Notes under the pieces: generated by a model
The model's input: the letters and a program-made list of their open reading frames with translations, nothing else
Databases searched by the model: none
Told to the model about the DNA's origin: nothing
From: a virus
Taxonomy: Duplodnaviria > Caudoviricetes
Reading direction: 5' to 3' (one strand)
Virus record (IMG/VR): IMGVR_UViG_3300032303_003166
Coordinates: 29,584 to 93,583 of that record
Length of the DNA stretch: 64,000 nt
Made by a program: the position numbers and the translations under genes
In this document: positions 19,073-57,805 of the stretch, piece after piece
Position numbering within the stretch: position 1 is the stretch's first letter
Layout: every line of letters starts with the position of its first letter

Positions 19073-19384
19073 TTATTTTTTGTCATCATTCCATTTTAAA
19101 AATAAAGCATTACACATTATATGTGATAAGTGATTCATTCCGGATTCAGGATCAATTTTTTCACCGGACATGTATGAAACAGCATGTCTCATAAGAGCAT
19201 TTTCATAACGCTCTCTACTTACTTTTTTCCAATTATCAATCGCATATTTTTCAGCGCCATGCATAAGAACCTTAACAGTTTCTTCAAGCTGAGCCCAAGG
19301 AAGCAGTCTCCAATCCAGCTTGTCCTGATCAAACTTAATGCCCTCTAAGCTATCTAGGGCATGCTCTTCTCTATTTTGTGACAT
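19073..19384 (-). CDS. dATP/dGTP diphosphohydrolase-domain (DUF5664-like) protein
   Basis: GIKFDQDKLDWRLLP...HGAEKY..DNWKK...LMRH...DPESGMNHLSH; start moved to MSQN. Confidence 0.8.
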   Translation of the reverse strand: MSQNREEHALDSLEGIKFDQDKLDWRLLPWAQLEETVKVLMHGAEKYAIDNWKKVSRERYENALMRHAVSYMSGEKIDPESGMNHLSHIMCNALFLKWNDDKK

Positions 19385-20150
19385 ACATTTTTTCCTTAAG
19401 AACACGAATATCACGTTCAGTATAATTTTTAAAGTCATAAGCGCTAATGGCTTCAGAGATCATTTTAAGTTCATTTCCACTAAAAGTTTTTGCATCAAAG
19501 ACTCGATTCTTCCAAGCGGCTATGGTCACTGGAAAAAGAGGCTGAACCAGATCATACATATCTGCGGCTAGCCAGCGAATTTCCTGTTGAGCATGTTCAT
19601 CAAGACGCAGTTCTAGAAAATGAAGTAGATTATGTAGATCTACACCAGCCACAAATGTGGTCATTTGAGAAACAGGCAGCACTCCACGAGCCATTTCATT
19701 GGCAACATCAAGCGATTGAATAAACTCATATGAGTGAACAGATCTTTCAATGGCTTCACGATAGTGCTTTTCTACAAGATCATTTTTTTCTAGCTCAAGA
19801 TCACGTCCACTGCCTTGCTTTTTATTTGAAGCAACAGATCTAAACGCATTAGGAACATAATATTCATTTGTAGCATTTACGTAGCGTAAAGATACCTCAT
19901 TATATGACCAGGTGCGATGGCGCATAAATTGACGAGCAACAAAGATTGGAGCCTGAATCTTAAACTGAATAAATGACATCTCAAATGGAGTAGTGTGCGC
20001 ATTACGAATAAGATACTCAATAAGCTTGGCATCGTCATCTGTAAACTCTTTTGACTCATTATTGAATGAGGTTCGTGCTGCATTTACAAAGTTTAAATCT
20101 GAGCCGTAGTGTCCAATGAGCTCAACAGTGCATCTTGACTTCTCTATCAT
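19371..20150 (-). CDS. thyX: FAD-dependent thymidylate synthase
   Basis: HTTPFE, RQFMRHRTWSYNEVSLRY, AQQEIR. Confidence 0.95.
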   Translation of the reverse strand: MIEKSRCTVELIGHYGSDLNFVNAARTSFNNESKEFTDDDAKLIEYLIRNAHTTPFEMSFIQFKIQAPIFVARQFMRHRTWSYNEVSLRYVNATNEYYVPNAFRSVASNKKQGSGRDLELEKNDLVEKHYREAIERSVHSYEFIQSLDVANEMARGVLPVSQMTTFVAGVDLHNLLHFLELRLDEHAQQEIRWLAADMYDLVQPLFPVTIAAWKNRVFDAKTFSGNELKMISEAISAYDFKNYTERDIRVLKEKMYVTK

Positions 20151-21422: not shown

Positions 21423-21869
21423 ATGAAAGTAAATACCAAAGATATTGACACTCTTAGGAACAATCTCACCAGATATGTTCAAGAGGTAAAAGATGTCAAT
21501 ATCTCTTTGCATGATTCTTTACAAAATGTAGAAGAAATGTTAATTGCTTTGCAAGAAACACAAAATGAATATGTGAATCTAATAAAAACTTATAGATATG
21601 ATACTTCCTCAGATTATTATGCTTCATTTACCGGTAATGTTCAACCAAAAACAAAACAGCATGACCTAGCAGCAGACGCGGAATTAAATAAGACACTTAG
21701 AAAAGATATAGAAGACTTAGAGAATGGAATTGCACTAGAGCTAGGAAACTTTAAAAAATCTTTTAAAGAATTTTCTACCTATATACAAGATGCAACAGAA
21801 GCTTATGCCCATCATAAAGAATTGTGGGCACAACTTATAAAAGAAATAGAAAAAGCTCCTAAAAGCTAA
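21423..21869 (+). CDS. hypothetical helical protein
   Basis: 148-aa ORF in operon. Confidence 0.55.
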   Translation: MKVNTKDIDTLRNNLTRYVQEVKDVNISLHDSLQNVEEMLIALQETQNEYVNLIKTYRYDTSSDYYASFTGNVQPKTKQHDLAADAELNKTLRKDIEDLENGIALELGNFKKSFKEFSTYIQDATEAYAHHKELWAQLIKEIEKAPKS

Positions 21870-23866
21870 GCTTCAAGTACAATATCATCCCCGGTTTGTA
21901 GCTGATTGGCCTCAATAACATGAATTACATTTTGTCTTTTAACAGACACTTTGTCTTTTTCCTGAAAGATATGTTCATGCCCAGATTCATCTTTAACTCT
22001 TAAAAACTTTTTGTCTTTGGCAAAGATTGGCCAAGCTGTTGAGCTGTGAAAATCTTTTTCCTTGGAATTATAAATCTTTCTAAGAGTTTCATCCTCTGCA
22101 TCAATTCCTGCAAGACGAACCTGAAGTGAAGCATAGTCCAGACTAAAAATAACATAATCATCTGATGGAACATCAATAATAGCAGGAATTGTTTCATCAT
22201 TTGCTGGAATCTGTTGAAGATTAGGATCCTTACATTTGCTACGGCCAGTGTCAGCTAACATATGAGCATAATTGGCACACATGCGATAACTTCCATCCGA
22301 ATAAGGATTAATGTTTTTTCCCCAACCCTCATCATCTGTCTTTCCAATAAAAGTATTAAGAAGAGTATTGGTGGTTCTAAGTTCTTGAAGAAGCTCGGCC
22401 TCTCTATGACCCATCTGCTTCCATCGCTCAAGCTGATCTTCTCCAGTGAGATAGTCACCAGCTTTTGATACTCCAAGATTAGGCCAACCGAGAGCCTTTA
22501 TCTTGGTTCCTAAAACCTTAAGTGAATTAAAGTCAAAATTTCCCACAATATTCATTGCTACACGCAATTCTTCTTCAATTTTCTTGATCTTTTCTTGAAA
22601 CATGGTTCTTGCACTATGAAGACGATCCATGGATACATATAGTCCATCATACTCCATTTGAGCAAATGCACGTAAGCTACGCATCATAATATCTTCATAG
22701 TATGAGGTCATGGTATACCACTTATTCTTTTCATTGGGAAAAGTTGCATCCATCCAGGCCAAATGCTCTCTTTGCTTTTTCCAAACCTGATATGTTACAA
22801 TAGCGTCCATGGTAGCATACTTGGCCAAAGTTGAAAATGGAATCTTAGTATAATCATTTTCTCCAGTGTTCTCAATAAATTCATCCAACTCTTGTTCATA
22901 ACCACCGTGCTTGGTATAAAAATATGAATTGGTCTTGAGGCTATTACTACGTAGCTCATTTAACACATGTCCTAGCTGAACAATGTCTTCATGAATTGCA
23001 GCATTAGGAATTCCATTACGCCATAAGAATTTACAGTCAAATTTTAAGTTAGCACCTATTTGAGTTTTCTTTCCAAGACATTCATTAAGAACTACCTTAT
23101 CAACCAGATTCCATGGACAAATATAGCCATTTATTCCATCAAAAGAAAAAGTTATAACACCAATCTTGGCTCTTACATGAGAGAAGCCACTTGTTTCCAA
23201 GTCCCAAGCCATGTGTGAATATCTAGAGTGTTGTTTGATAACTCTTATAAACTCTTCAGTGCTTTCAATCTTGTGAAGAATCACTTCATCCAATTCTTGA
23301 TCTGCTGACAGCTCAGCATATTTCTTTTCAGCAGTGTCCAGCTGCCAACGAGCAAAGTTCATCTTATAAGTGTCATAATACGGAGATAGTGATTGACCAA
23401 ATGTCAATATTTGACTAAATGAGTCAATTGGAAATACATAACGACGAGTATGTTGATCAAAGAAATAGGTTTTGGGATTGGTAATAACATCATAAAGATA
23501 ATTTACCTGTAAATCATCTCGAGACACAGCATAGAGTGCAGAGCCAGAGGTAATGATAACTCCACGATCCTCAACGTATTGAGAAAACGGAGTCTTGTTC
23601 TTCTTGTAGAAGTTGGTTATACCGCCCTTGATATTTTCTTCAGTGGGTGCAATATATGATGCTAGTACAATACGATACGAATCAAAATACTTTTTAACAA
23701 GAGTGGATATTGCTTTAACCTTTCTTGTATCATAATGCTTGTCCACAAGCACAAGAGCATAAGGTTCATTCTCAATAAAATTGTCTGCAAGAAGTATCTC
23801 TGTGTTTATTTCATCTTTCAACTTTTTGGATGAAGTTACAGAAATATTTCCAAAAGCAAATGCCAT
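21866..23866 (-). CDS. polA: DNA polymerase family A, N-terminal fragment (UDG-like domain, 3'-5' exonuclease, thumb, motif A) ending in an intein-like tail
   Basis: WDLETSG, NLKFD, YATMD, TGRSKCKDPNLQQIP, DYASLQVR, DFHSSTA; stops before motif B. Confidence 0.9.
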   Translation of the reverse strand: MAFAFGNISVTSSKKLKDEINTEILLADNFIENEPYALVLVDKHYDTRKVKAISTLVKKYFDSYRIVLASYIAPTEENIKGGITNFYKKNKTPFSQYVEDRGVIITSGSALYAVSRDDLQVNYLYDVITNPKTYFFDQHTRRYVFPIDSFSQILTFGQSLSPYYDTYKMNFARWQLDTAEKKYAELSADQELDEVILHKIESTEEFIRVIKQHSRYSHMAWDLETSGFSHVRAKIGVITFSFDGINGYICPWNLVDKVVLNECLGKKTQIGANLKFDCKFLWRNGIPNAAIHEDIVQLGHVLNELRSNSLKTNSYFYTKHGGYEQELDEFIENTGENDYTKIPFSTLAKYATMDAIVTYQVWKKQREHLAWMDATFPNEKNKWYTMTSYYEDIMMRSLRAFAQMEYDGLYVSMDRLHSARTMFQEKIKKIEEELRVAMNIVGNFDFNSLKVLGTKIKALGWPNLGVSKAGDYLTGEDQLERWKQMGHREAELLQELRTTNTLLNTFIGKTDDEGWGKNINPYSDGSYRMCANYAHMLADTGRSKCKDPNLQQIPANDETIPAIIDVPSDDYVIFSLDYASLQVRLAGIDAEDETLRKIYNSKEKDFHSSTAWPIFAKDKKFLRVKDESGHEHIFQEKDKVSVKRQNVIHVIEANQLQTGDDIVLEA

Positions 23867-53287: not shown

Positions 53288-55129
53288 TTAATTAGTGATG
53301 AAAGAGTATTCATCTTCTTCATCCGCTTTAAAGATACTTTTCCATTCTTCTGTACTTAGAGTGTCCTTAGACAGCAGCTTTTCATTAAGCATACCCTTGG
53401 TTTCTAGGTTTTTATCCATATACACATCCAAAGAGCCAGAATAAAGCAATACATAGGTACTTACATTACGAGTTTGCCCAATTCTGTGAATTCTGGCCAT
53501 AGATTGACTAAAAGTGATATAATCAAAGGTTCTTTCAACATAAACCTGACACGTAGCCTCAGTTACAGTGACTGAAGTGTTTAGAACTTGAATTCCAGCT
53601 ATAAGAATTCTATTTTTCTTGTTATTTTTGAATTTTTCAACAAGATCTCTCTTCATTTCATCACGAGTCATGCCTGCAGGTATTTCTGTTTCACCATTTA
53701 TCACAATAGGGTCATGCTTGAGGTATTTTTGTCTTAAGATCTCAGCAGTCTTAGGATGAGAGGTCCACAAGATCATTTTTTCTTCATTTTCTACTACATG
53801 TTCGTCAATCAAGCCATCTAGGACTGCATATTTTTCCAAATTTTCAACTTTAAAACGTTGAATAGCCCTGTTGACATCACTTGGGAGCTTTTCTTCATGA
53901 CTTTCAAGGAATTTTGGGTTTTCCAAGCTCAACATGAGGTATTGGAACTTATTTTGAATCATTCTCATGTCAGAAAACTGCTGCATTTCATGTTTTATGA
54001 ATTTTTCATACACTTCTCTATGAGTATCTGACATTCTAACGTATATTTTCTTCATAAAATTCTCTGGAAGAACAATATGATCTTCAACTCGCCTATGAGA
54101 CGCATAAGTTTTACGAATATTGTCCATCAGAGCATCAATTTTGTCTTTTTTAAAATAATTTATAGCATACGCAGAAAAACGATTGCCAATTGACGCATAC
54201 TCTGCTAGCCAATCTGTAAAATTATAGTTGTGAACCAGGCCAGGATCAAGAATGTTTAATTGACTGTATATTTTTTCTACTTTATCAACAAAAGTTCCAG
54301 TGCTGAGGTAACGAAAATAGAATTGATCAGCAATAAGCTTAATAGTAGCATATCTACGTGATTGCGGATTGCCAACACAATGAGACTCGTCAAGAATAAG
54401 ACAGGCTTTTTTATCTCCAATCCATTTGGCGATTGGTAGCGGAGATGAACGATATTTAACACCGCTTTTTTTATTCTTGATTTTATAATTTTTATCAGAG
54501 ATAAGTCTAAAAGTATCAAAGTCTGTTATAACAATTCGCTTATTTGATTCAAACACATCAACACTATCTTTATTGGCTATTACCATGTCTTCTTCTAAGA
54601 AGTGAGTAAACTTTAGAAGCTCATGATAGAAGTTATAAGTGCCGCTTCTGGTGGTAAGAATTAATATTTTACCTAGGTCATCTAGCTTTGTTAGATGAGA
54701 CAGAACACCAGATAAGATATAGCTCTTACCAAGTCCCATTTCAAGATCAAAAAGATATCTATTGCGACTTATACCTTTGATGATGTCTTGTTTTTGATAG
54801 TCTTCATTAGGAGAGATTCCTTTTACTGGAGATTTCTTAAGAAGTGATTGATCAAAGCTTCTACGCTCTGGAAAAATTTCTTGTTGCTTACCTACAGTTA
54901 ACAACAACTCATTAAGTTTCTTTTCATTCACAAAAGAAATTGAGATAATGTCCAATTCAGAAAGCTTTTCTCTTATAGATTCATATTTAGGTAAGCTTAT
55001 TGTCCAATCTTTTTCATCAGGATTAAAAGTGCAGTGTTGAGATTTTAAAAATAGAATCACATCAGAGAAAGCTTTGCTTCCTGGAAAATTAACAACAACT
55101 TTGGAGTCTCTAACTGAGAATTCAATCAC
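53288..55129 (-). CDS. SNF2-family helicase
   Basis: LEMGLGKS, ILDESH, STGT, QSMARIHRIGQ. Confidence 0.92.
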   Translation of the reverse strand: MIEFSVRDSKVVVNFPGSKAFSDVILFLKSQHCTFNPDEKDWTISLPKYESIREKLSELDIISISFVNEKKLNELLLTVGKQQEIFPERRSFDQSLLKKSPVKGISPNEDYQKQDIIKGISRNRYLFDLEMGLGKSYILSGVLSHLTKLDDLGKILILTTRSGTYNFYHELLKFTHFLEEDMVIANKDSVDVFESNKRIVITDFDTFRLISDKNYKIKNKKSGVKYRSSPLPIAKWIGDKKACLILDESHCVGNPQSRRYATIKLIADQFYFRYLSTGTFVDKVEKIYSQLNILDPGLVHNYNFTDWLAEYASIGNRFSAYAINYFKKDKIDALMDNIRKTYASHRRVEDHIVLPENFMKKIYVRMSDTHREVYEKFIKHEMQQFSDMRMIQNKFQYLMLSLENPKFLESHEEKLPSDVNRAIQRFKVENLEKYAVLDGLIDEHVVENEEKMILWTSHPKTAEILRQKYLKHDPIVINGETEIPAGMTRDEMKRDLVEKFKNNKKNRILIAGIQVLNTSVTVTEATCQVYVERTFDYITFSQSMARIHRIGQTRNVSTYVLLYSGSLDVYMDKNLETKGMLNEKLLSKDTLSTEEWKSIFKADEEDEYSFITN

Positions 55130-55929
55130 TTCTTGGCGACCAGTTTCTTATACTTATCATAAGAGACTCCGCTTTTATAAAAGCCACCTAGCTTGGGATC
55201 ACAGATCTTTTCTTCAATCTCAAGAGGAATTTCCCATTGTTCCGGATAGCGTCTTTCAAATTCTTCTTTGATCTTGTTATACATTATATCTAACTCGTCA
55301 CGATGAACATAGAAGTCTACAGCGTCATGTACCTGATCAATAATTCTACTTTTCATTTTGTTTTCAATAAGCCACTCATGTATAATAGCAATAGGACGAT
55401 TAATAGATCCACTCTCAAAGTTTTGAATATCACTATTTGTAGCAATGTTATTTAAGTTGGCAAATTCCTCACCATATTCTTTCTGATCATCCTTTCCAGA
55501 AAGAAATAGCTGTGGAACTCTACGAAGAGAACCAAATACAGAGCGAATATATCCGTGTTCTTTTGCAAAAGCACGATTCTTTTGTACTCTATCAAGAAGT
55601 CCTGGATAGGTCTTAAAGAAATTGTTTCTAATAAAGCTTGCGCATGCAACCAGCTTTGCTTGGCGTAGAGTAAGATCTTTCTTTTTCTCAAAAATGCCAT
55701 GAACATGATCATTAAGCTTATTGTCTTCAAGAAAGTTGTCAATCTCATCATCAGTCCAAGAAATATCCAGATCTTTTAATGCGAATGACTGAGCACCACG
55801 AGCAAAAATAAAGGCAAGACCTACTTTTTTTCCTTGGTCTCTATAGCCTTTAAATAGCTTAGTCTTCTTTAAATTCACAAAGTCATTTACAGACCTGACT
55901 TCAAATTCTTCAATGGATGCAATTTTCAT
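55126..55929 (-). CDS. polA: DNA polymerase family A, C-terminal fragment (motifs B and C) with IntC-like N-terminus
   Basis: YRDQGKKVGLAFIF, FFKTYPG, GYIRSVFGSLRR, NSDIQ, QVHDA. Confidence 0.9.
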   Translation of the reverse strand: MKIASIEEFEVRSVNDFVNLKKTKLFKGYRDQGKKVGLAFIFARGAQSFALKDLDISWTDDEIDNFLEDNKLNDHVHGIFEKKKDLTLRQAKLVACASFIRNNFFKTYPGLLDRVQKNRAFAKEHGYIRSVFGSLRRVPQLFLSGKDDQKEYGEEFANLNNIATNSDIQNFESGSINRPIAIIHEWLIENKMKSRIIDQVHDAVDFYVHRDELDIMYNKIKEEFERRYPEQWEIPLEIEEKICDPKLGGFYKSGVSYDKYKKLVAKK

Positions 55930-55948: not shown

Positions 55949-56503
55949 TTAGGCAGGACAATGAATAAGAGAAATTCCGGAGGAATCAAATAGTTTTCTA
56001 GTGTCATCACCAGAATGAATATACTTTTCAATGTAGTATACATTACTTGGCCGTAAGCTTACTAGGAGTTTAGCGCAATTTATACACGGCTCTAGTGTGC
56101 AATAGATGTCGCATCCGGCCAATGAGGTTCCGGTTCGTGCTGCTTCAGCAATAAGGTTCTGTTCAGCGTGTAATTCATGGGTATTTGACCACTCATGATG
56201 AATATGTTTCCACTCTTTGGTAGAAATCCATTCTTGATATAATTCAATCTCTAAAACATTTTTAGCTTTATTAGAAAACCAACCGCTTGTTTCATATGCT
56301 TTTCTAAAATCTGAAATTAAATACTCTTCCTTCCAGTGATCTACACAATTTGTAGATCCTTTAGGTGTACCGTTAATTCCAGTCTGAACAATATGACCAT
56401 CTTTAATAGCTAAAGCACAAACTTTTACAGATTCACAATGAGATTCTTGAGCAAATCTTTTTGCAATATCCATAAATAGAGCATGCTTTCTATCAGAATT
56501 CAC
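55949..56503 (-). CDS. dCMP deaminase
   Basis: GINGTP, HAEQN, PCINC. Confidence 0.92.
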   Translation of the reverse strand: MNSDRKHALFMDIAKRFAQESHCESVKVCALAIKDGHIVQTGINGTPKGSTNCVDHWKEEYLISDFRKAYETSGWFSNKAKNVLEIELYQEWISTKEWKHIHHEWSNTHELHAEQNLIAEAARTGTSLAGCDIYCTLEPCINCAKLLVSLRPSNVYYIEKYIHSGDDTRKLFDSSGISLIHCPA

Positions 56504-56703
56504 GAAAAGATTCCTCTAATATAAATGCATTCTTGTCTAATAGATTTAAGATTGCTTGTTCTAAGAGCATCTTCAATTCTTGCAATAGCTTCTAAAACCT
56601 CTTGCTTTTTTTGAACTAAAGTCATTGTGGATTCTAGTGATGAATTTATTTTTTTATTATCTATATTTCCAATCACTATGTTTGTCATTCTATTTCTAAC
56701 CAC
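56500..56703 (-). CDS. small hypothetical protein
   Basis: Coupled ORF; true start uncertain. Confidence 0.45.
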   Translation of the reverse strand: MVRNRMTNIVIGNIDNKKINSSLESTMTLVQKKQEVLEAIARIEDALRTSNLKSIRQECIYIRGIFS

Positions 56704-57512
56704 TCATTAAGACTGCCAGAGATATCTTCTAGAGGCTTATTATATTGATCAGTCAGCTTATGATTAGGAACTCCATTCTTATCTATTAAGCTTTCTTTAA
56801 GAATCATTTTATTATAAGAGATAGGGCTAGTAGACATTTTTTCTAAGAGTTCCCAATCATTCTCATATGCATGAAGACTATTTGTAAAAAAGTTTAACAA
56901 GCCAACTTTAAGACCTGGATAATCCTCTAAAAGTAATAAATACATAGATTGAAGAAGTGAACTAAAGAAAGGAATGTCAAATGCAATTCCCATTTTAATA
57001 TCACTACTTCTCATATTAATAGAGAAATCCAATACGCTATTTCTAATAGAAAAAAGACCATAAACAGTGCATGGAAAATCTTTGTTTCCAAAGTGCCTAT
57101 GGGAAATGTTGTTGAAGTGAAGAATGGCTTGACGAGTATCTTTATCTGCTTTAAGAGATTCATAGGCCCATACCCATCCGGAAACCCCATGCTCATTGGG
57201 CTTCATAATAAGATCACCGTAATTTGAATTAATTAGTCCAGCTTCATCTGCTAATCTCTCCCAAAACTTAGAATATTGAGTGATCCATTTAACTGATCTG
57301 TCCCCACTTAAATACCAAATCATTTCTGCAGCAAAATACTTTAGCGGAGTTGATCTATGTTCATTCTCATATAATGGAAAAAATGGATCAATAGAGTATT
57401 GAACATTTCTATTCTCTCTAATTTTCATTCCACGAGGAGATGTTTCATATTTATAAAAAAAACATGTGTCAGAGATCATCTCTGCAAACCAATTGTGTGC
57501 TTTACTTTCCAT
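56685..57512 (-). CDS. thymidylate-synthase-fold dCMP (hydroxy)methylase, T4 gp42-like
   Basis: INSNYG, DFPCT, NMRSSD...GIAFD (Asp at the ThyA Asn177 position), SLHAY. Confidence 0.75.
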   Translation of the reverse strand: MESKAHNWFAEMISDTCFFYKYETSPRGMKIRENRNVQYSIDPFFPLYENEHRSTPLKYFAAEMIWYLSGDRSVKWITQYSKFWERLADEAGLINSNYGDLIMKPNEHGVSGWVWAYESLKADKDTRQAILHFNNISHRHFGNKDFPCTVYGLFSIRNSVLDFSINMRSSDIKMGIAFDIPFFSSLLQSMYLLLLEDYPGLKVGLLNFFTNSLHAYENDWELLEKMSTSPISYNKMILKESLIDKNGVPNHKLTDQYNKPLEDISGSLNEWLEIE

Positions 57513-57535
57513 ATGTAAAATATAACCTCTCTTCT

Positions 57536-57805
57536 TCAATTATCACAATAGAGCTCGCCACCCTTGAAAGTCCAATCTTGGCATCCTTGGCATAGACCGC
57601 TCGACAAGTATTCTCTGTATGCAAATTTTGTTCTAAAGCCGCGCGCTTTATTTCCACAAGACGGACAAAGGTCAAGCTGCATATTCATGATAGATCTTTC
57701 AAATGGACCCTCTTGATCCATAGTCATATGAAACATATCTTTAAAAACTTGATTTGCTTCAACCATCATCCTAAGTTGCTGATCTTTGTCATTCATCATT
57801 CCCAA
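57536..57805 (-). CDS. small zinc-ribbon protein
   Basis: CPSC...EY..SGLCQGCQD. Confidence 0.6.
   Translation of the reverse strand: MGMMNDKDQQLRMMVEANQVFKDMFHMTMDQEGPFERSIMNMQLDLCPSCGNKARGFRTKFAYREYLSSGLCQGCQDWTFKGGELYCDN

What the first reader, a model, noticed from the sequence alone, without database searches (positions are those of the whole stretch)
21866..22021. Catalytically dead half-intein apparently reused to join a split DNA polymerase
Seen: right after DFHSSTAWPIF, the PolA N-fragment ends with 51 non-polymerase residues (FLRVKDESGHEHIFQEKDKVSVKRQNVIHVIEANQLQTGDDIV). These match the second half of an N-intein (v.i.t.sG..i..T..H......w.eA.eL..GD.i). The C-fragment (55929 start) begins MKIASIEE, the typical first strand of a C-intein. 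All splicing residues are missing: no block A Cys/Ser, TxxH replaced by QEKD, and no block F/G His-Asn. Known: the Hint fold is pseudo-two-fold, and in split DnaE inteins the distal IntN half and the first IntC strand are the parts that associate first. Inference: only this capture lobe was retained, giving a non-splicing heterodimerisation module for a two-chain polymerase. I do not know of a described example.
Basis: partly seen in the sequence, partly recalled or inferred. Interest (0 to 1): 0.9.

Follow-up and report, generated by a model that had tools for sequence, protein, structure and literature searches.

The report
Split PolA with dead half-intein clasp
This large phage makes its family A DNA polymerase as two proteins from genes 31 kb apart, and the broken ends carry the middle part of a split intein with no splicing residues, which most likely only clips the two halves together; in other phages the same clip travels with a putative homing endonuclease and splits many replication genes.

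Summary
Confirmed. PolA is split between helix N and the O-helix into a 666-aa N-piece (21866-23866, -) and a 267-aa C-piece (55126-55929, -). The 51-aa tail is homologous to the distal lobe of split N-inteins (HHalign 96%, E 2.5e-9; QEKD sits on TPDH). In natural single-chain relatives, tail plus head strand folds as one beta-domain (pLDDT 91), and its 24 best structural matches are all Hint domains, covering distal IntN plus the first IntC strand only. Block A, TxxH and blocks F/G are missing in all 102 tails, so splicing is very unlikely. The tail is under purifying selection (pN/pS about 0.05). It sits at three PolA sites and in UvsW, PolB, DnaE, RNA ligase and ribonucleotide reductases, in several cases flanking a putative homing endonuclease. 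One recent insertion lies between flanks 98-99% identical to a relative unbroken at that site. Nearest published cases: Aeh1 NrdA tails and split-intein 'fractured genes'; neither describes this module. The scan noted it earlier on other DNA (DnaE, UvsW).

The parts
21866..23866 (-). PolA N-piece, 666 aa: N-terminal domain, 3'-5' exonuclease, thumb, motif A, helix N, then the half-Hint tail
22115..22138 (-). Motif A with catalytic Asp577 (DYASLQVR)
   Evidence: D577 invariant in 58 relatives
22022..22054 (-). Helix N (residues 605-615), the last polymerase element of the N-piece
21866..22021 (-). 51-aa tail: distal (second) lobe of an N-intein without block A or block B catalytic residues
21953..21964 (-). 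QEKD at the position of intein block B TxxH
   Evidence: HHalign register against six true N-inteins; hmmsearch alignment
55126..55929 (-). PolA C-piece, 267 aa: head strand, O-helix (motif B), fingers, motif C
55897..55929 (-). Head strand (residues 1-11), equivalent to the first beta-strand of a C-intein; no block F/G follows
55804..55842 (-). Motif B / O-helix (R30 to F42), with Leu at the Phe762 position and Phe at the Tyr766 position of E. coli Pol I
   Evidence: E. coli numbering from own knowledge
55318..55335 (-). Motif C with catalytic His201-Asp202
   Evidence: invariant in 9 C-pieces

Best explanation
The phage encodes a two-chain family A DNA polymerase. The N-piece ends in a small all-beta lobe derived from the distal half of a split N-intein, and the C-piece begins with the strand that completes this lobe. 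The two chains are translated separately, the head strand zips onto the tail (the beta3/beta6 pairing used for capture by split inteins), and this holds helix N next to the O-helix so that motif A (N-piece) and motifs B and C (C-piece) form one active site. No splicing occurs and the module stays on the enzyme. The module arose from a phage split intein by loss of the proximal N-lobe and blocks F/G. It spreads as a cassette (tail, stop, putative homing endonuclease gene, start, head) that breaks host genes in surface loops and supplies its own non-covalent repair. In this lineage the endonuclease is gone and the two genes have moved 31 kb apart. Shown: homology, extent, missing catalytic residues, selection, occurrence at many sites, endonuclease-like ORFs between halves in relatives, one recent insertion. 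Inferred: binding in trans, its necessity for activity, endonuclease activity and homing.
For: Profile homology to true split N-inteins with QEKD/LGGE on TPDH (NrdJ-1 intein second hit in PDB at a weak E 0.074). AF2 model of a natural contiguous module: pLDDT 91, all beta; its 24 best VIA matches are Hint domains (best Z 7.6, rmsd 4.5, 63 aligned; gp41-1 residues 38-106, NrdJ-1 54-128; first non-Hint Z 3.5), and Foldseek ranks the same way though with E above 0.001. In a 610-aa model of a fused relative the module (blocks of pLDDT 93-98) lies between helix N and the helix before the O-helix of an intact PolA fold. 0 of 102 tails have TxxH. Selection: 10 synonymous against 2 non-synonymous changes in the tail between the window and L004; similar in L006/L007 and L003/L030. 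About 95 relatives end in the same tail, and every C-piece found keeps a head strand even when far from the N-gene. Mobility: L030 carries tail, DUF7487 ORF, head inside the exonuclease domain while the flanking protein is 98-99% identical to L003, which is unbroken there; L016 has N-piece, 195-aa ORF, C-piece and is sister (support 100) to module-free P0106; UvsW in L166 is cut twice by such cassettes; the same tail ends PolB, DnaE, RNA ligase, NrdD and other pieces. Precedent that mobile-element tails are essential for a split enzyme: PMC3045599.
Against: No experiment and no complex model of the window's two chains. The window's head is short (about 11 residues) and has no statistical match of its own; its identity rests on fused relatives. 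The two polymerase pieces share a large palm/fingers interface and may assemble without the module. Structural Z-scores are under 8 with rmsd 3-5 A. A Ser/Thr lies just after the head at this site, so decay in place of an intein once inserted here is not excluded for this site.
Confidence: 0.75

Rival explanations
1. The module is Hint-derived and dead, but it is a tolerated passenger or has another job (solubility, capping of the broken ends, or binding DNA or a partner on the fingers). The polymerase halves assemble mainly through their own interface, as in other intein-free split polymerases.
For: The module is kept in single-chain forms, where no docking is needed (P0051, P0055, L093, L036). 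Intein-free split gp43A/B of phage 44RR has no such module (cited in PMC2677866). Some C-heads in the family are only 6-8 residues.
Against: Fused forms are nested among split forms in at least five places on the tree, so they look like re-fusions. The module recurs at the breaks of unrelated host proteins, which fits a generic joining role better than a host-specific one. The tail is under purifying selection.
Confidence: 0.13
2. The clasp works as described, but at this site it arose by decay in place of a true split intein, not by arrival of an already dead cassette.
For: A Ser/Thr follows the head in most C-pieces and in module-free relatives. True split inteins occur about 25 residues downstream in motif B of relatives (L023, L037, G010). 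DnaB piece P0191 keeps Cys1 and a few block A residues directly before a dead lobe, which looks like an intermediate of such decay.
Against: No relative among about 130 has a complete intein at this site. The Ser/Thr is also the N-cap of the next helix. Other sites (PolA exonuclease loop, UvsW, RNA ligase) have no Cys/Ser/Thr after the head, and L030 shows a dead cassette in near-identical flanks.
Confidence: 0.08
3. The halves are joined covalently after all, by non-canonical protein splicing or by RNA trans-splicing that fuses tail and head.
For: Contiguous genes with the module exist, so a joined product would be viable.
Against: The proximal lobe (about 55-60 residues with residue 1) and blocks F/G are physically absent, so no class 1, 2 or 3 active site can form. 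No Rfam intron match in the window or in four cassette loci. Both pieces have their own start and stop codons, and gene order and distance vary freely among relatives.
Confidence: 0.02
4. The resemblance to inteins is convergent, or the module is an independent small beta-domain, possibly a relic of the half-domain from which the Hint fold arose.
For: The single window tail finds no Pfam or NCBIfam Hint family; structural scores are moderate.
Against: Sequence profiles match phage split inteins specifically and in register over 38 columns, and about 55 true inteins appear among 115 hits in 1.84 billion proteins. The break lies at the canonical intein split site.
Confidence: 0.02

Closest known systems
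Aeromonas phage Aeh1 nrdA-a / mobE / nrdA-b with essential C- and N-terminal tails (Crona et al., PMC3045599)
   Same: A homing endonuclease splits an essential gene; tails brought by the element are needed to assemble an active enzyme without splicing. The authors speculated that the tails might be remnants of a degenerate split intein.
   Different: The Aeh1 tails are short, unique and not matched by the module profile; no Hint homology was shown, and they act on the higher oligomer. Here the tails form a conserved Hint subdomain shared by many host genes.
'Fractured genes' with split inteins and a free-standing endonuclease (Dassa et al., PMC2677866), e.g. gp41-1, NrdJ-1
   Same: Same gene layout in relatives (N-gene, endonuclease-like ORF, C-gene), same split point in the Hint fold, closest sequence and structure matches; loss of the endonuclease and uncoupling of the halves (their steps III and IV) describes the window.
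   Different: Those inteins keep Cys1, TxxH and His-Asn and splice. This module has about half the fold, no catalytic residue, and inserts in surface loops without a +1 nucleophile.
Cyanobacterial split DnaE and Nanoarchaeum split PolB inteins (as cited in PMC2677866)
   Same: Replicative polymerase encoded at two distant loci with intein-derived ends.
   Different: They trans-splice to one chain; family C or B, not A.
Intein-free split polymerases: gp43A/gp43B of Aeromonas phages 44RR and 25, Methanothermobacter PolB (as cited in PMC2677866, PMC3045599)
   Same: Two-chain polymerase assembled without splicing.
   Different: No Hint-derived module at the 44RR break.

Membership tests
Family A DNA polymerase | Pfam DNA_pol_A and exonuclease domains with motifs A, B, C and catalytic aspartates | tested here: met
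   fused relative matches Bacillus Pol I at E 5e-18
Hint superfamily (subdomain) | Sequence-profile homology to inteins | tested here: met
   HHalign 96%, E 2.5e-9
Hint superfamily (subdomain) | Hint-type beta fold | tested here: met
   Model of a natural fused relative, not the window's own chains: top 24 matches all Hint, Z up to 7.6, rmsd 3-5 A, 59-66 aligned; covers about half the fold
Split intein (splicing-competent) | Block A with Cys/Ser/Ala at position 1 and the proximal N-lobe | tested here: not met
   The tail aligns to residues 64-101 of a 105-aa IntN and joins helix N after about 5 residues
Split intein (splicing-competent) | Block B TxxH | tested here: not met
   QEKD in the window; 0 of 102 tails
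Split intein (splicing-competent) | Blocks F/G with terminal Asn/Gln before Cys/Ser/Thr | tested here: not met
   The head runs into polymerase sequence after about 11 residues; true IntC pieces in relatives are 33-44 aa
Split intein (splicing-competent) | Protein trans-splicing activity | not testable with these tools
   needs co-expression
Fractured gene (Dassa et al.) | Free-standing endonuclease gene between adjacent halves | tested here: not met
   In the window the halves are 31,260 bp apart with no such ORF next to either; present in relatives L030, L016, L166
Aeh1-type tail-assembled split enzyme | Element-derived tails on both pieces | tested here: met
   Tail and head are absent from uninterrupted relatives such as P0106-P0120
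Aeh1-type tail-assembled split enzyme | Sequence homology to the Aeh1 NrdA tails | tested here: inconclusive
   No profile match; the tails are short, so distant homology is not excluded
Aeh1-type tail-assembled split enzyme | Tails essential for assembly and activity | not testable with these tools
   needs deletion mutants

The most novel reading that the evidence does not exclude
A widespread, undescribed class of mobile element in large phages: a homing endonuclease flanked by a split half-Hint adaptor that neutralises gene breakage by non-covalent docking, with no RNA or protein splicing. Because it needs no +1 nucleophile, it can enter any surface loop, and it is later domesticated as an obligatory subunit clasp, as in this two-chain PolA.
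Probability: 0.6. Interest if true: 0.88.

Novelty: new variant of a known kind. Interest (0 to 1): 0.78.

Why it matters
It would add a third way, beside introns and inteins, for homing endonucleases to sit inside essential genes, and it turns the speculation of Crona et al. (tails as degenerate intein remnants) into a testable family with a defined fold. It explains many 'broken' phage replication genes that annotation treats as fragments. It shows that about half of the Hint fold can form a domain by itself, which bears on Hint evolution and on how split inteins associate. Naturally diversified tail/head pairs of about 50 + 11 residues, with both junctions predicted close together, could be loop-friendly heterodimer tags.

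Tried and rejected
Pfam and NCBIfam scans of single tails found no Hint family. The Atlas search gave only low-score leads. Foldseek gave no match at E up to 0.001 for the 66-aa model. tblastn of a UvsW tail against cultured phages found nothing, and the PolA has no close cultured relative (best 24-27% identity). Aeh1, 44RR, phiYS40 and A511 gave no match to the module; the CP220 hit is a true NrdA intein. No second module was found in the 93.6-kb own fragment, which is about 31% complete. No Rfam match; promoter scan upstream of the C-gene at chance level. Seven literature searches on split genes and intein remnants found no description of the module; Shah et al. 2013 was not held, so the lobe-level capture claim rests on secondary accounts and own knowledge. 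Caveats: the tree is FastTree only, and row P0054 is mislabelled there as module-free (it is split). In one search the rows 'core L036/L037' and 'tail L007/L009' are not reliably in register and were not used. The 'polA' flag is unreliable because that profile included the tail; hosts were read from the sequences and Pfam. The profiles came from hits to an alignment that contained the window tail, so they are not independent.

Full report
Observation. The window is a 64-kb part of a 93.6-kb fragment of a large tailed phage (baseplate, terminase and primase families). ORF 21866..23866 (-) encodes 666 aa with a 3'-5' exonuclease and the first half of Pfam DNA_pol_A, ending 51 residues after helix N. 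ORF 55126..55929 (-) encodes 267 aa with the rest, motifs B and C included. The genes are 31,260 bp apart, the C-gene lies upstream in the direction of transcription, and neither has an endonuclease-like neighbour. Catalytic aspartates of motifs A and C are intact.

The tail is a family trait. Of 120 homologues of the N-piece, about 95 end in a related tail of some 50 residues, seven are single-chain proteins that carry tail and head as a contiguous insert of about 60 residues, and about ten are single-chain without any insert. C-pieces found in the same genomes all begin with a short beta-type head such as MKI-x-S-I, MKITHR or MRVKKI. Comparison with insert-free relatives places the insert between helix N and the short helix before the O-helix.

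The tail is the distal lobe of a split N-intein. A profile built only from 102 PolA tails, run on 13,837 ORFs of the fetched loci, finds after the PolA tails the ends of true split N-inteins in neighbouring ribonucleotide reductase genes (E 1e-8 to 3e-3), three of which were confirmed as Pfam Intein_splicing. Profile-profile alignment gives probability 96%, E 2.5e-9, over residues 64-101 of a 105-aa N-intein, with QEKD on TPDH; reversed controls score near zero. A search of 1.84 billion representatives with 17 tails returned 115 proteins, about 55 of them true intein lobes. An AlphaFold2 model of the contiguous module of relative L089 has pLDDT 91 and five beta-strands. Against 48,161 solved chains its 24 best matches are all Hint domains, aligned to gp41-1 residues 38-106, NrdJ-1 54-128 and Npu DnaB 48-118; best Z is 7.6 and the first non-Hint row has 3.5. 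These Z values are moderate, but the ranking is uniform. The aligned range runs from the beta3 region of IntN to beta6, the first IntC strand; these two strands form the charge zipper of gp41-1 (10.1101/546465). In the window the first tail strand is net +2 and the head net -2, the polarity reported for gp41-1, while the ligase and PolB pairs are -4/+6; this is a weak hint only. In a 610-aa model of the same fused relative (pLDDT 91, pTM 0.87) the module sits between helix N and the O-helix region of a normal PolA fold.

It cannot plausibly splice. The proximal lobe with residue 1 is absent, none of 102 tails has TxxH, and the head passes into polymerase sequence after about 11 residues, whereas true C-inteins in the same loci are 33-44 residues and end in Asn or Gln before Cys/Ser. 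No intron RNA was found. Yet the tail is conserved by selection: 10 synonymous against 2 non-synonymous differences to the near-identical phage L004 (pS 0.34, pN 0.017), with similar ratios in two other close pairs.

The module is mobile. In relative L030 the PolA is broken a second time inside the exonuclease domain by a 1.5-kb cassette: a dead tail, a stop, a 387-aa DUF7487 ORF with a PD-(D/E)xK-like end (read by eye), and a new start with a head strand. The flanking protein is 98-99% identical to L003, which is unbroken there. L036, L037 and L043 carry the module at a third site just before motif A. At the window's site, L016 has N-gene, 195-aa ORF, C-gene and is sister to module-free P0106 with support 100. 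G010 encodes PolA in three distant genes, one joint made by the dead module and the other by a true split intein in motif B. Outside PolA the same dead tail ends pieces of UvsW, PolB, DnaE, T4-type RNA ligase, NrdD, other ribonucleotide reductases, a probable radical SAM protein and a DnaB-like helicase. Where DNA was fetched and the next piece was present, it began with a head strand: UvsW in L166 is cut twice, each time with an HNH- or NUMOD3-type ORF between tail and head; the ligase and PolB pieces are adjacent. For the DnaE locus the partner was not on the short contig. On the PolA tree the split state dominates a clade of 103 rows that includes the window (support 98), and fused forms are nested in at least five places, which suggests re-fusion (FastTree, one row mislabelled).

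Mechanism. Most likely the head strand completes the tail lobe in trans and so ties helix N to the O-helix region, giving a two-chain polymerase with a composite active site. The cassette form explains the origin: an endonuclease breaks a gene in a surface loop and supplies the clasp; later the endonuclease is lost and the halves move apart, as in the late steps of the model of Dassa et al. (PMC2677866). Binding, necessity and homing are inferred. The main rival is that the halves assemble unaided and the module is a passenger or has another role. Decay in place at this one site also remains possible, since a Ser/Thr follows the head.

Comparison with known systems. It is not a member of the splicing-competent split inteins (three defining features not met), but it shares their fold fragment, split point and gene layout. 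It works like the Aeh1 NrdA tails, which are essential for a non-spliced split enzyme and were speculated to be intein remnants (PMC3045599), but those tails do not match this module. No paper describing the module was found in the searchable library, which lacks most subscription journals. After reaching this reading I looked up the scan's own notes: the same kind of module was reported on other DNA, mostly in DnaE and UvsW. These are unchecked AI notes and are not used as support. What this window adds is the family A case, fixation across a large clade with distant genes, natural re-fusions, and a recent insertion caught in near-identical flanks.

Verdict. Observation confirmed, interpretation supported and widened. 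Novelty: new variant of a known kind (gene breakage by endonuclease cassettes with non-covalent rescue), with an undescribed Hint-derived adaptor. Interest 0.78.

Noticed in passing
window 22115-22138 and 55804-55842: Motif A has Gln at the Glu710 position (a trait of the whole family, insert-free members included); motif B has Leu at the Phe762 position only in the window's close clade (P0121-P0127), and Phe at Tyr766. Not linked to the split.
   Followed up: partly
window 19073-19438, 19371-20150, 55949-56503, 56685-57539: The phage carries a dATP/dGTP diphosphohydrolase-like gene (PF18909), both ThyX and a ThyA-like gene, and a dCMP deaminase; with the unusual polymerase residues this may point to an altered nucleotide pool or base modification.
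   Followed up: no
L010:12903-16286, L011:13322-16063, L006:14080-16284, L009:14106-15248: Ribonucleotide reductase genes of relatives are broken by true split inteins, some with an endonuclease-like ORF between the halves: new fractured-gene loci close to NrdJ-1.
   Followed up: partly
L023:4359-8728, L037:12054-13791, L036:12137-13717, L181:1438-1863 with L088: True inteins (split in L023, L037, G010; contiguous in L036) in motif B of this PolA family; L025/L026 lack the intein and keep only a short hairpin at the window's split site.
   Followed up: partly
P0191: DnaB-like piece with Cys1 and a few block A residues at the P-loop site followed directly by a dead lobe: a possible intermediate in the shrinking of an intein.
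   Followed up: no
P0225, P0157: Ribonucleotide reductase pieces with a true intein end and, about 20 residues later, a dead module; this is the same region between the catalytic cysteines where Aeh1 nrdA is split.
   Followed up: no
L165:2021-2110: PolB C-piece starts with a head strand but has an in-frame stop inside motif C that looks like a short duplication; may be an assembly error.
   Followed up: no
L166:7590-9339: UvsW is in three pieces; the second tail is a more diverged module followed by a NUMOD3-type ORF.
   Followed up: partly
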